Positions 1,956 through 42,350 of a DNA stretch of 64,000 bases are shown here, piece by piece. Location of the stretch: the NCBI GenBank assembly GCA_001189195.1, contig LFCQ01000006.1, forward strand, positions 56,841-120,840, read 5' to 3'. This stretch comes from Parcubacteria bacterium C7867-007. GTDB taxonomy: Bacteria > Patescibacteriota > Minisyncoccia > Phycocordibacterales > Phycocordibacteraceae. How positions within the stretch are numbered: the stretch's first letter is position 1; each line of letters begins with the position of its first letter. The position numbers were made by a program, and so were the translations under genes. The notes below the pieces were generated by a model. It searched no databases. It was not told where the DNA came from and saw nothing but the letters and a program-made list of their open reading frames with translations.

Positions 1956-2031
1956 GCCGAGGTAGCTCAGTTGGTAGAGCAATTGCATCGTAAGCAATGG
2001 GTCGGGAGTTCAAGTCTCCCCCTCGGCTCCA
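1956..2031 (+). tRNA. tRNA-Thr(CGT)
   Basis: GCCGAGG/CCTCGGC-T-CCA; anticodon arm ATTGC-ATCGTAA-GCAAT. Confidence 0.95.
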
Positions 2032-2032
2032 G

Positions 2033-2068
2033 AAGAAAAACTGACTCTAATTAGAGTCAGTTTTTCTT
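2033..2068 (+). terminator. Intrinsic terminator after tRNA-Thr
   Basis: AAGAAAAACTGACTCTAA/TTAGAGTCAGTTTTTCTT palindrome. Confidence 0.8.
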
Positions 2069-2118
2069 TATCTCCACCACACCGTCCTCTGATCACTGTT
2101 CCGCTATTCTGCTTCTAC

Positions 2119-2187
2119 GCCGGTGGCAGGTTTGCAGTGGTCCCCCTCATCAAGGTACCTTTGAGGGTTCAATTCCCTCCACCGGCA
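2119..2187 (+). ncRNA. tRNA-like RNA 1 (acceptor stem and T-arm, non-canonical interior)
   Basis: GCCGGTG/CACCGGC stem; GAGGG-TTCAATT-CCCTC T-arm; no canonical D or anticodon arm; -10-like TATTCT at 2105-2110; paralog at 42282-42350. Confidence 0.75.
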
Positions 2188-2230
2188 CAAGAATGTTGAC
2201 GAATTTATCATTGAGCAATAATATTATTAG

Positions 2231-2298
2231 CGATGAGGGGCACCTGCAAATAAGCAAGAGTACTGGGAAAGGCGGCCGAAAGGTCGTTTTTCTTTTTT
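2231..2298 (+). ncRNA. Short transcript 1 carrying leaderless minigene MRGTCK* (2233-2253)
   Basis: TTGACG(2196)-17 bp-TAATAT(2219) promoter; ATG near the predicted TSS; terminator hairpin 2267-2298; complementary to tRNA-like RNA 1. Confidence 0.6.
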
Positions 2299-2312: not shown

Positions 2313-3194
2313 ATGAGTCCTGAGGAACGCCTAGCAGAAATAGAAGAGCTAATGATGTCTCCAACTTTCTGGAGCGATAAGGAGGCTGCACAGAAAGTAG
2401 TACGTGAATACCAATCCCTTAAAGAGGGAGGTTCTGGTGATGGACATGATGGTGGTTCCGCAACCCTGGCTATTCTTGCGGGAGCAGGGGGTGATGATGC
2501 TGAAGACTTCGCACGCATGTTACGTGGGATGTATGAAGGCTATGCAGATGAAAAAGGATGGAGTGTACGTGAGCTCCATGCCAACGAGAATAATCATGGA
2601 GGGTACCGTAACCTACTCCTTGATATAGACGGGAGGGGTGCATACGGACGCTTGAAGCATGAGTCTGGGGTGCACCGTCTTGTACGTATCTCCCCCTTTA
2701 ATGCCAACGATAAACGACAGACATCTTTTGCGCTTGTGGAGGTCTTGCCCGTACTAGCACCAAACGAGCAGACAGCACTCAATCCAGAAGATCTTGAGGT
2801 CACCTTTGCACGTTCTGGTGGAGCGGGAGGACAGAATGTGAACAAACGAGAGACTGCTGTACGTATTACCCACACCCCAACAGGAATTTCTGTACACGTA
2901 TCTAGTGAGCGTAGTCAGCAAGCAAATAGGGACAAGGCTGTTTCACTTATCCAGGCAAAGATATTCGCACGCGAAGAAGAGAAACGTGATGCAGAAGCAA
3001 AGGGACGTTCTATCGCAGCAACCACAGCGAATGAGTGGGGCAGTCAGATACGTTCCTATGTATTGCACCCATACAAAATGGTAAAAGATCACATAACCGG
3101 CCACGAATCACATGATCCAGAGGCTGTTTTGGCGGGAGATCTGGATGCGTTTATTGACGCATCCACAAATTCTGGGCAAGAGGGTGAAGGGTAG
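2313..3194 (+). CDS. prfB: Peptide chain release factor 2 (shortened N-domain)
   Basis: [11 protein letters not shown] (SPF) and GGQ motifs, WGSQIRSYV; TATACT at 2301 just before ATG 2313. Confidence 0.93.
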
Positions 3195-6533: not shown

Positions 6534-6914
6534 TTGGACGAAATTGATATCAACCTCGGTCGTCGTTTGCGTCGCCGTCGCCGTCTGTTGGGTCTGACCC
6601 AACAAGAACTCGCACATGCAAGTGGGGTTCGATTTCAGCAGATCCAGAAGTATGAGTGTGCCGCGAACCGCATGAGTGCCGCTCGTCTCTGGCAACTCGC
6701 TGAAGTTCTGGAGGTCCCGGTCTCCTACTTCTACGAGGGCCTCACCCGTAATCAACGGGAAGCTCTGGAACAGGAGACGGTCTCGTCAGCGAACGCAGCC
6801 ATGGCTAGCAAGGAGACGCAGGACCTGATCCATGCGTACTACAAGCTCGGAGAACGTCCTCGGCGACGCCTCCTCGATCTTGCTAAAGCCATGAACGGCG
6901 AGGTCGAAGCGTAG
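6534..6914 (+). CDS. XRE-family HTH transcriptional regulator (alphaproteobacterial type)
   Basis: GVRFQQIQKYE..ANR.SAARL...A..L.VPVSYFYEG; TTG start after GGGGAG SD. Confidence 0.9.
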   Translation: MDEIDINLGRRLRRRRRLLGLTQQELAHASGVRFQQIQKYECAANRMSAARLWQLAEVLEVPVSYFYEGLTRNQREALEQETVSSANAAMASKETQDLIHAYYKLGERPRRRLLDLAKAMNGEVEA

Positions 6915-6934
6915 AACACCCAGAAAGAAACACA

Positions 6935-6964
6935 CCGGCGGCCCCAAGGGTCGCCGGTTCTTTT
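6935..6964 (+). terminator. Terminator, identical copy at 7332-7361
   Basis: CCGGCGGCCCCAAGGGTCGCCGGTTCTTTT. Confidence 0.85.
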
Positions 6965-7059
6965 GTGAAAAGAAGGAATCATTGCTTTGAGCAAGAAAAG
7001 TGTTACAGTCCATTCAGGTTTTACATCAGTTCGATGTGACGAATGAGCGGGAGAGTGTT

Positions 7060-7308
7060 TTGGAAGATATCAATTTGCATGTCGGAAGGCGTATGCGCAT
7101 ACGCCGTCGTCTGGCAGGTTTCTCTCAGCAACAGGTTGGGGCTAAGTGTGGGGTGACCTTCCAGACGGTCCAAAAGATGGAATCTGGTCAGGTCGACATT
7201 TCGATAAAGCGACTCTGGAAACTCAGTGAGGTATTGGGTGTCCCCATAACCTACTTCTTCGATGGATACGGTGAAACTGATGACGGTTCTCCAGTAACCT
7301 CCTCGTAA
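7060..7308 (+). CDS. XRE-family HTH regulator, paralog of 6534-6914
   Basis: GVTFQTVQKMESG...L.VPITYFFDG; TTG start after GGGAGAG, same leader as the paralog. Confidence 0.85.
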   Translation: MEDINLHVGRRMRIRRRLAGFSQQQVGAKCGVTFQTVQKMESGQVDISIKRLWKLSEVLGVPITYFFDGYGETDDGSPVTSS

Positions 7309-42109: not shown

Positions 42110-42142
42110 TTGACATGTCATAGCAATTTGCTACGATTGTCT

Positions 42143-42220
42143 ATGACAGTTACCCTCTGGTGAAAACCAAACGAGAGTGGAAGAAAAACACCGACCCATA
42201 AAGTCGGTGTTTTTCTTTTT
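42143..42220 (+). ncRNA. Short transcript 2 carrying leaderless minigene MTVTLW* (42143-42163)
   Basis: TTGACA(42110)...TG-C-TACGAT(42132) promoter; ATG at the predicted TSS; terminator 42181-42220; complementary to tRNA-like RNA 2. Confidence 0.6.
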
Positions 42221-42281: not shown

Positions 42282-42350
42282 GCCGGTGGTTTCGGTGACG
42301 AGAGGGTAATTGTCACTCCACTCTTGAGGGTTCAACTCCCTCCACCGGCT
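42282..42350 (+). ncRNA. tRNA-like RNA 2 (acceptor stem and T-arm, non-canonical interior)
   Basis: GCCGGTG/CACCGGC; GAGGG-TTCAACT-CCCTC; 37-nt interior as in copy 1; TATAGT at 42268. Confidence 0.75.

What the first reader, a model, noticed from the sequence alone, without database searches (positions are those of the whole stretch)
2078..2298. tRNA-shaped RNA paired with a leaderless minigene RNA: candidate new all-RNA system (locus 1 of 2)
Seen: 2119-2187 has a perfect acceptor stem (GCCGGTG/CACCGGC) and T-arm (GAGGG-TTCAATT-CCCTC), but its 37-nt interior forms no canonical D or anticodon arm. Just downstream on the same strand is a separate unit: TTGACG-17-TAATAT promoter, ATG AGG GGC ACC TGC AAA TAA (MRGTCK*, 2233-2253) and a terminator. 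The interior is complementary to that RNA: CCCCTCATC(2143-2151) with GATGAGGGG(2232-2240), covering the AUG; TTTGCAG(2131-2137) with CTGCAAA(2244-2250); GGTACCTTTG(2154-2163) with CAAGAGTACT(2255-2264), 9/10 counting G-U. Known precedents: P1 C4 and P4 CI are RNase P-processed tRNA-like antisense RNAs; lambda bar minigenes and CreT are toxic by sequestering tRNA. Inference: a tRNA scaffold presents a variable antisense loop that neutralises or regulates a minigene RNA.
Basis: partly seen in the sequence, partly recalled or inferred. Interest (0 to 1): 0.92.

Follow-up and report, generated by a model that had tools for sequence, protein, structure and literature searches.

The report
tRNA mimic with antisense antidote RNA
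Some ultra-small bacteria carry a tiny two-gene cassette: a misshapen tRNA whose anticodon often does not fit the amino acid it seems built to carry, and a separate small RNA that pairs with it and would switch it off; it looks like a protein-free poison-and-antidote pair of a kind I could not find described.

Summary
The sequence features are real; the minigene is not the point. The 69-nt RNA is one of 72 distinct members of a Patescibacteria family (four copies in this genome) missed by ARAGORN and Rfam. Members form a compact cloverleaf: acceptor, 3-bp D stem, roughly 9-bp arm, T arm. All four helices co-vary, and A18 goes with G55 in 6 of 6. The arm ends in an 8-9-nt loop Y-Y-R-N-N-A with Asp, Thr, Val or Gly triplets. 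All 17 members with the alanine identity pair G3:U70 carry non-alanine triplets. The neighbour is a promoter-to-terminator RNA that co-varies with its own shell (own partner ranks first in 47 of 63; paralogs are orthogonal). Its ORF is not conserved: 39 of 63 partners have no closed ORF. The cassette is missing from 29 of 29 same-genus prfB loci. Expression, charging and toxicity are untested. The scan noted a similar pair earlier in a prophage of another genome (e1-3622085). Not found in the literature searched.

The parts
2119..2187 (+). tRNA-like RNA ('shell'): 7-bp acceptor, mini D arm, long anticodon-like arm, T arm, discriminator A2187; no encoded CCA
   Evidence: (61.7 bits with family model R1, which was built with it)
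2126..2135 (+). mini D arm: 3-bp stem directly after the acceptor, 4-nt loop with GG (G18/G19 equivalent)
   Evidence: (helix 2: 3 of 3 pairs with changes on both sides, 82.7% of cells paired)
2136..2162 (+). anticodon-like arm; weak at this locus, 8-9 bp in 47 of 69 members
2147..2153 (+). conserved loop Y32-Y33-[A-T-C]-A37-N38; triplet 2149-2151 would read Asp GAU (one step 5', the triplet is CAT)
   Evidence: register inferred
2163..2179 (+). T arm
2105..2110 (+). -10-like hexamer of the shell, 8 nt before G1, no good -35; a TA-n-n-n-T hexamer lies 6-9 nt upstream in 45 of 72 members
   Evidence: function inferred
2196..2224 (+). sigma-70-type promoter of the partner RNA
2231..2298 (+). partner antisense RNA (start inferred at 2231-2233): 5' tail matches the shell loop, then the 5' arm and D arm, then the 3' arm; ends in the terminator
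2233..2253 (+). six-codon ORF; present but not conserved in the family
2265..2298 (+). intrinsic terminator of the partner; the first terminator-like site after the shell, so a shell precursor would also carry the partner in cis
   Evidence: cis pairing inferred
2033..2068 (+). terminator-like hairpin after tRNA-Thr; left border of the inserted cassette
   Evidence: (read from the sequence)
1956..2031 (+). tRNA-Thr(CGT), ordinary left neighbour
2313..3194 (+). release-factor gene (prfB-like), right neighbour with its own -10 hexamer at 2301-2306 that relatives keep without the cassette
42282..42350 (+). second shell (loop triplet GTC, discriminator T)
42110..42220 (+). promoter, partner RNA and terminator of the second cassette, here upstream of its shell

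Best explanation
A self-contained RNA-only toxin-antitoxin-like cassette of about 235 bp. The shell is a non-canonical tRNA made from a weak promoter, trimmed and CCA-tailed by host enzymes (inferred), charged by a host synthetase that reads the acceptor end (AlaRS for the G3:U70 branch; ThrRS, LeuRS or MetRS are guesses for the GCC branch, which includes this locus), and able to enter the ribosome, where it puts the wrong amino acid at Asp, Val or Gly codons and/or shifts frame through its 8-9-nt loop (inferred). The partner, made from a near-consensus promoter, is the antidote: its 5' tail pairs with the anticodon loop and then unzips the anticodon arm, D arm and in some members the T arm (pairing shown by covariation; order of events inferred). 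Loss or shut-off of the partner would free the stable mimic (inferred). Shown: structure, specific pairing, orthogonal paralogs, patchy insertion. Not shown: expression, charging, decoding, toxicity.
For: Cloverleaf with compensatory changes in 23 of 24 pairs, 92% of cells paired versus 36-52% in slid controls (alignment fitted to the structure). Elbow contact: A18 with G55 in 6 of 6, GG with T/C55 in 66 of 66, C56 and A58 in 72 of 72. Loop Y-Y-R-N-N-A in 30 of 30 shells found by a pattern that ignored the loop; position 34 toggles G/A between synonymous triplets; A37 stays where the partner has C or A opposite, as at this locus. 17 of 17 G3:U70/A73 members have non-Ala triplets: GTC 6, ATC 5, GAC 3, ACC 2, GCC 1; G3:U70 is described as sufficient for AlaRS (PMC11415595, passage). 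Modal loop 8 nt with the extra base 5' of position 32 (31 of 69), the build of frameshift suppressor SufJ (PMC4238358, passages); a natural 8-nt-loop tRNA is threonylated and reads Leu codons (PMC3113583, passages). Natural dual-identity tRNAs with A34 are toxic in E. coli (PMC10404621, passages). Partner specificity -12.7 versus -1.0 kcal/mol, diagonal matrices within G000 and G382. One shell without its own partner (L283, next to an integrase gene) is matched by another partner of the same genome, -15.0. Up to six copies per genome, 15 of 150 genus genomes, unrelated neighbours, empty site in 29 of 29 relatives. Host has RNase P RNA and a CCA-enzyme-family gene.
Against: No expression data: the RNA runs laid covered almost only tRNA-Thr of other organisms. 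Toxicity is inferred from genetics alone. For the GCC branch (52 of 69) the charging enzyme is unclear: 14 members have Thr triplets, 12 of them with U73 as in this genome's tRNA-Thr, and would not missense-read; the link between loop class and discriminator (ATC with A73 in 9 of 11) may have one origin. The acceptor plus T arm are in the global minimum-energy fold in only 39 of 72 members, and not at this locus. Predicted net binding is near zero for some own pairs (L082, L273, L276, L221 upstream copy). No U8/A9 connector or variable loop; whether EF-Tu and the ribosome accept the shape is unknown. 17 Ala-type members form one clade, so they are not 17 independent cases. No recombinase or target duplication was identified, so the mode of spread is unknown.
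Confidence: 0.5

Rival explanations
1. Same antidote logic, but the mimic acts as a decoy rather than a decoder: it binds and blocks a synthetase (AspRS, ThrRS, ValRS read these anticodons; recalled) or sits uncharged in the A site and triggers RelA.
For: Loop triplets are limited to a few types; a RelA/SpoT gene is present; unusual core may not suit EF-Tu; only 8 of 72 encode CCA (most ordinary tRNA genes of this genome also lack it).
Against: G3:U70 with A73 is kept in all 17 members of one branch, which points to charging; G34/A34 toggling between synonymous codons fits decoding better than synthetase binding (inference).
Confidence: 0.18
2. The shell is a C4-like antisense guide on a stable tRNA scaffold that acts on unknown phage or host mRNAs; the partner is a sponge.
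Against: The loop is base-paired on both sides and constrained like an anticodon loop, not free; 12-mer complements of the four G000 interiors elsewhere in the genome are few, scattered and not shared; no match in the phage or plasmid collections; downstream genes are unrelated and on the opposite strand in 38 of 65 cassettes. Unknown phages were not testable.
Confidence: 0.12
3. Regulated, useful mistranslation or a stress switch kept by the host rather than a selfish addiction module; the partner sets when the mimic is free.
For: Five of six genomes of one family carry it; DnaA-box-like sites precede the partner promoter in 19 of 72 cassettes versus 0 of 71 control windows; some sites are shared between relatives; mistranslation can be used adaptively (PMC10404621 abstract).
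Against: Patchy presence (15 of 150 in the genus, 0 of 150 in a phylum-wide draw) and several orthogonal copies per genome fit selfish modules better.
Confidence: 0.1
4. One reading: the shell neutralises a toxic leaderless minigene RNA (CreT- or bar-like).
For: ATG-AGG start in the ATC class; AGG is rare in G000 (2.6 per 1000 codons); five ATC-class partners have exactly six codons; start is near the inferred 5' end.
Against: 39 of 63 partners lack a closed ORF; the whole Thr-triplet class mostly lacks a start codon; registers differ; the AUG is the forced complement of the loop; the five six-codon cases belong to one related group. CreT needs two consecutive rare codons (PMC8501985 passages); there is one here. 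A secondary role of translation on the partner in this one class is not excluded.
Confidence: 0.06
5. DNA-level inverted repeats or tRNA-derived integration scars with no RNA function.
For: tRNA 3' halves are common attachment sites (recalled); the top half is 28 of 32 identical to this genome's tRNA-Leu(CAA).
Against: Pairing is better on the transcribed strand in 56 of 63 (G-U tolerance); four co-varying helices and a tertiary covariation; own promoters and terminators.
Confidence: 0.03

Closest known systems
Type VIII toxin-antitoxin SdsR/RyeA (PMC8610362, passages)
   Same: RNA effector masked by an antisense RNA; no protein.
   Different: SdsR and RyeA overlap on opposite strands and SdsR represses mRNAs; here two separate same-strand genes with imperfect, co-evolving pairing, and the effector is tRNA-shaped. 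Toxicity untested here.
tRNA-ProX dual-identity mistranslating tRNAs of Streptomyces/Kitasatospora (PMC10404621, passages)
   Same: Acceptor identity of one amino acid with anticodons of others; A34; several anticodon variants in one family.
   Different: ProX are normal cloverleafs with a companion ProRSx gene; the word antisense does not occur in that paper's main text. Here the core is non-canonical, the loop enlarged, no synthetase travels with it, and there is an antisense partner.
C4 antisense RNA of P1/P7 (Rfam C4; PMC5320573, passages) and P4 CI (recalled)
   Same: About 70-nt tRNA-like RNA that pairs with a nearby target RNA and diversifies in specificity.
   Different: No Rfam C4 hit; C4 uses two loops to block a ribosome-binding site on a phage mRNA; here one anticodon-like loop, a full T arm, a stand-alone non-coding partner, chromosomal intergenic sites.
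CreTA (PMC8501985, passages)
   Same: Tiny all-RNA toxin-antitoxin aimed at translation.
   Different: CreT is a mini-ORF with two rare codons that drains a tRNA; CreA is a crRNA-like guide using Cascade. Here no conserved ORF and direct RNA-RNA pairing.
tRNA-SufJ (PMC4238358) and yeast mitochondrial tRNA-Thr with 8-nt loop (PMC3113583), passages
   Same: 8-nt anticodon loop; SufJ has the extra base 5' of position 32 and a GGU anticodon, as in the Thr-triplet class.
   Different: Both have ordinary D arms and 5-bp anticodon stems and no antisense partner.
tmRNA tRNA-like domain; mascRNA
   Same: Ala-branch acceptor GGGGGTG/CACCTCC equals that of this genome's tmRNA pieces; weak mascRNA-model match with a short D stem (23.6 bits).
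   Different: No tag-coding domain; helix ends in an anticodon-like loop; the genome has its own tmRNA pieces and SmpB.

Membership tests
Canonical tRNA | ARAGORN call or Rfam RF00005 at gathering score | tested here: not met
   (20.7 of 29 bits); no shell called in 60 loci or in 12 loci by Rfam
Canonical tRNA | U8/A9 connector, 4-bp D stem, 5-bp stem with 7-nt loop, variable loop | tested here: not met
Canonical tRNA | 7-bp acceptor, 5-bp T stem, elbow bases 18/19/55/56/58, purine 37 | tested here: met
Canonical tRNA | Aminoacylation and decoding | not testable with these tools
   needs in vitro charging and reporter assays
C4 antisense RNA | Match to the Rfam C4 model | tested here: not met
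C4 antisense RNA | Two loops (a', b') pairing with an mRNA and covering its ribosome-binding site | tested here: not met
   partner is a terminated RNA without conserved ORF; downstream genes unrelated
C4 antisense RNA | Cut from a longer transcript by RNase P | not testable with these tools
   RNase P RNA present; -10-like site 6-9 nt upstream in 45 of 72 suggests a very short or no leader
C4 antisense RNA | Phage immunity context | tested here: not met
   housekeeping neighbours; strict patterns found 0 viral contigs; no phage record match
CreTA | Mini-ORF with two consecutive rare codons and efficient start | tested here: not met
   one AGG here; ORF not conserved
CreTA | crRNA-like antitoxin within a cas locus | tested here: not met
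   no Cas family among Pfam hits of 112 flanking ORFs; whole-genome cas content not searched
Type VIII TA (SdsR/RyeA kind) | Both parts are small RNAs and one masks the other by antisense pairing | tested here: met
   by covariation and folding only
Type VIII TA (SdsR/RyeA kind) | Overlapping genes on opposite strands | tested here: not met
   separate same-strand genes
Type VIII TA (SdsR/RyeA kind) | One RNA toxic, the other rescues | not testable with these tools
   needs expression test
tRNA-ProX / dual-identity tRNAs | Acceptor identity and anticodon of different amino acids | tested here: met
   17 of 17 G3:U70 members; inconclusive for the GCC branch that includes this locus
tRNA-ProX / dual-identity tRNAs | Pro identity, A33, companion ProRSx gene | tested here: not met
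tmRNA (one- or two-piece) | Tag reading frame and match to the tmRNA model | tested here: not met
   only a 17-nt T-arm match at 13.7 bits for one copy; no conserved ORF; permuted tmRNA models were covered only by the all-Rfam scans

The most novel reading that the evidence does not exclude
A new class of protein-free toxin-antitoxin system in which the toxin is a compact, chargeable non-canonical tRNA that rewrites the code (Ala or another residue at Asp, Val or Gly codons, or +1 frameshifts) and the antitoxin is a dedicated anti-tRNA RNA that invades its anticodon arm; spread through Patescibacteria in orthogonal copies, with sister forms in phages.
Probability: 0.45. Interest if true: 0.95.

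Novelty: categorically new. Interest (0 to 1): 0.86.

Why it matters
It would be a natural tRNA controlled by its own antisense RNA and a toxin that works by miscoding, built from about 235 bp with no protein. The 68-nt scaffold (3-bp D stem, 9-bp anticodon arm, 8-nt loop, no connectors) tests how far tRNA shape can bend and still be charged and decoded, and offers switchable, mutually orthogonal tRNA-antidote pairs for code expansion. It also shows that tRNA finders and Rfam miss a whole RNA class in Patescibacteria. The main claims can be tested quickly in E. coli.

Tried and rejected
Relaxed ARAGORN (-ps70) gave thousands of false calls and timed out. The one genome-contig scan and the first viral scan were diluted by ordinary tRNAs, so GTDB-wide counts are not available. 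Expression: RNA runs shared at most 0.08 of the words and, when laid, covered tRNA-Thr of other organisms and one short T-arm piece: no information. Missing-tRNA substitute: rejected, the genome has tRNA-Asp(GTC), tRNA-Thr(GGT) and tRNA-Val(GAC). Two-piece tmRNA: rejected, see membership. Attenuator of the downstream gene: rejected. L285 and L277 were model hits that proved to be ordinary tRNAs and were dropped. The tree of 69 shells has 63 columns and is poorly resolved; it supports the Ala/GCC split (99/98) and repeated triplet changes but not the number of origins of the ATC-A73 link. A TadA-like deaminase was not found with PF14437 in G000, so A34 is probably unmodified. The E. coli mutA/glyV parallel (tRNA-Gly reading Asp codons) is recalled; one search showed only a reference title.

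Full report
Observation. ARAGORN finds four ordinary tRNAs in the window and not this RNA; Rfam finds the same four; at relaxed threshold the stretch scores 20.7 bits on the tRNA model (cut-off 29) and 23.6 on mascRNA (cut-off 42.5), with no C4 match among 14 listed. The interior-partner duplex (-32.0 kcal/mol) is reached by 1 of 1500 random genomic 45-mers; the three paralogs give 0, 0 and 1 of 1500.

Family. The genome (G000, 702 kb) holds four copies: window 2119 and 42282, C1:239258-239326 and C1:255289-255358. Pattern scans gave 30 distinct shells; named records among them are labelled Patescibacteria, Parcubacteria, one Saccharibacteria and one unclassified bacterium. A covariance model from them separates members (mostly 50 bits or more) from ordinary tRNAs (43 or less). 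Members were found in 15 of 150 other genomes of the genus, 1 of 150 of the order, 3 of 150 of the class after dropping one ordinary tRNA, 0 of 150 of the phylum, and with a refined model in 5 of 6 genomes of one family and 7 of 105 of another order. The large searches scored only 33-48 candidates per genome, so these are lower bounds. Copies per genome reach six (G382). After dropping duplicates and two ordinary tRNAs, 72 distinct shells of 66-70 nt remain. None was called by ARAGORN in 60 loci or by Rfam in 12 loci.

Structure of the shell. The interior folds as a 3-bp stem directly after the acceptor with a small GG loop, then a long hairpin that abuts the T arm. On 50 members, 23 of 24 pairs show changes on both sides and 92.2% of cells pair, against 36-52% for slid controls (the alignment was fitted to this structure, so it leans towards it; the third D pair fails in 22 of 50). 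The elbow co-varies: all 6 members with AG in the D loop have G55, all 66 with GG have T or C; C56 and A58 are invariant; the six lie in both main clades. The arm has 8-9 bp in 47 of 69; 3 + 9 pairs match the roughly 12 layers from elbow to anticodon of normal tRNA (rule recalled, not tested). Against this: the acceptor and T arm are part of the global minimum fold in only 39 of 72, and at this locus the arm has 6 predicted pairs.

The loop. All 30 shells found by patterns that ignored the loop show Y-Y-R-N-N-A at the tip (read by eye). In 69 of 72 (three missed my position filter but have the motif) the triplets are GTC 30, ATC 16, GGT 12, GAC 6, AGT 2, ACC 2, GCC 1 (model-found members may lean to the model's loop). 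Position 34 switches between G and A within Asp and within Thr. The loop is 8 nt in 31 and 9 nt in 13 of 69, with two bases 3' of the triplet in 48: the extra bases lie 5', as in SufJ, which binds the A site in frame and shifts +1 (PMC4238358, passages). A37 is kept where the partner has C or A opposite, this locus included, so the loop is constrained by something other than the partner.

Acceptor identity. Seventeen members form a clade (99/98) with G3:U70 and A73, the pair described as sufficient for AlaRS (PMC11415595, passage). Their triplets are Asp 11, Val 3, Gly 3 (one of these, L296, mismatches its partner and may be a fresh mutation) and never Ala: the three possible changes at the middle base of an Ala anticodon. 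Their acceptor often equals that of G000's tmRNA, whose ends lie on C2 and C7 next to and apart from smpB. The other 52 have GCC-type acceptors; most have U73 like this genome's three tRNA-Thr, while 9 of 11 ATC members have A73 and C33, so that a one-base shift reads CAT (Met) and the GTC class reads TGT/CGT (Thr). This suggests synthetase and ribosome may read the enlarged loop in different registers; it is speculation, and the ATC group may have one origin. The window's shell shares 28 of 32 top-half positions with tRNA-Leu(CAA). A natural precedent for ThrRS charging an 8-nt-loop tRNA that reads another amino acid's codons exists (PMC3113583, passages).

The partner. A rule independent of the shell sequence (sigma-70-type promoter, then hairpin and T run; three upstream partners were pointed to by hand) gave partners for 63 of 72. 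Net binding is -12.7 (sd 7.3) kcal/mol for own pairs and -1.0 (sd 2.4) for others; the own partner ranks first in 47 and in the top two in 56; matrices within G000 and G382 are diagonal. Weak cases: L082, L276, the upstream L221 copy, and L273, whose first rank is trivial (0.0). Pairing is better on the transcribed strand in 56 of 63, as expected for G-U pairs. Of the other nine, six have 11-21-bp runs over the loop, one has a partner in a longer copy, one ends at a contig edge, and one (L283) has an integrase gene where the partner would be but is matched by another partner in the same genome (-15.0). The partner's 5' end covers the loop, then the 5' arm and often the D arm; its 3' part takes the displaced strand or the T arm. 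This is the anatomy of an inhibitor that unfolds its target (inference). At this locus no terminator-like site separates the two genes, so the precursor may also fold back in cis; at locus 2 the partner is upstream with its own terminator, so pairing there is in trans.

The minigene. 19 of 63 partners have no start codon near the 5' end, 20 have no stop before the terminator, 24 have a closed ORF of 2-19 codons. G000's fourth copy has none. The AUG at 2233 is the complement of the loop. In favour: AGG is rare here (2.6 per 1000) and five ATC-class partners have six codons, but they are relatives. CreT needs two consecutive rare codons (PMC8501985, passages).

Context. Pfam hits of 112 flanking ORFs are unrelated housekeeping genes (rpoC, dnaK, prfA, gyrA, nusB and others); the downstream ORF is on the opposite strand in 38 of 65 cassettes (crude ORF calls). 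At 29 other prfB loci of the genus there is no shell; tRNA-Thr(CGT) lies within 1.5 kb upstream in 27 and within 100 nt in 12, and the prfB -10 site is kept. The cassette is therefore an insertion here. Strict patterns found nothing in viral contigs, nor did BLAST in phages or plasmids.

Mechanism and odds. Specific pairing of the two RNAs: about 0.9. Shell as effector on the translation apparatus with the partner as antidote: about 0.75 over three variants (miscoding toxin 0.5, decoy 0.18, host-regulated miscoding 0.1). Guide RNA with sponge 0.12; minigene toxin 0.06. Host RNase P RNA, a CCA-enzyme-family gene and RelA/SpoT are present. Nothing here shows expression, charging or toxicity; the RNA runs were uninformative.

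Known systems and novelty. It would work like a type VIII pair (PMC8610362, passages) with an effector like tRNA-ProX (PMC10404621, passages), but fails the membership features I could test for C4 (PMC5320573, passages), CreTA, tmRNA and ordinary tRNA. Searches returned no paper; listings 31, 59 and 91 (25 of 675 shown, none holding the tRNA terms) showed no description. The library lacks most subscription journals, and motif catalogues in supplements were not seen. An unchecked note of this scan describes the same kind of pair in an Anaerolineales prophage (e1-3622085); it is not independent evidence, and my reading was set before I saw it. Verdict: real, apparently undescribed, mechanism inferred; interest 0.86.

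Noticed in passing
L335, L339, L340, L347, L364, L366, L411, L415 (viral contigs): Compact phage tRNA-Ala(UGC)-type genes whose D stem starts right after the acceptor and whose anticodon stem has 6-7 bp: the same building plan with a matching Ala anticodon, hinting that the scaffold works in translation.
   Followed up: partly
L321, L377, L402, L355, L414 (viral contigs): G3:U70 tRNA-like RNAs with long arms and non-Ala loops; L414 has a 15-bp antisense neighbour, the other four showed no clear one.
   Followed up: partly
19 of 72 cassettes, first 40 nt after the shell; not at the window loci: DnaA-box-like 9-mer (at most one mismatch) just upstream of the partner promoter; 0 of 71 control windows.
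   Followed up: partly
G000:C2:1-270 (minus strand, after smpB) and G000:C7:62-100: The two ends of the genome's tmRNA lie on different contigs, which is why ARAGORN and Rfam miss it.
   Followed up: partly
L218 downstream, L213 upstream, L221, L031, L100, L286: Extra partner-like pieces without a shell in view (L218, L213) and tandem or close pairs of cassettes.
   Followed up: no
L296:565-632: Shell loop triplet GCC while its partner still matches GTC: possible fresh mutation or escape from the partner.
   Followed up: no
G000 whole genome: ARAGORN lists 37 tRNAs with no Ala or His, one Met, and a tRNA-Ile with TAT anticodon; the gaps may be assembly gaps.
   Followed up: no
window 6534-7308: Two short adjacent helix-turn-helix-looking ORFs (by eye) amid housekeeping genes.
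   Followed up: no
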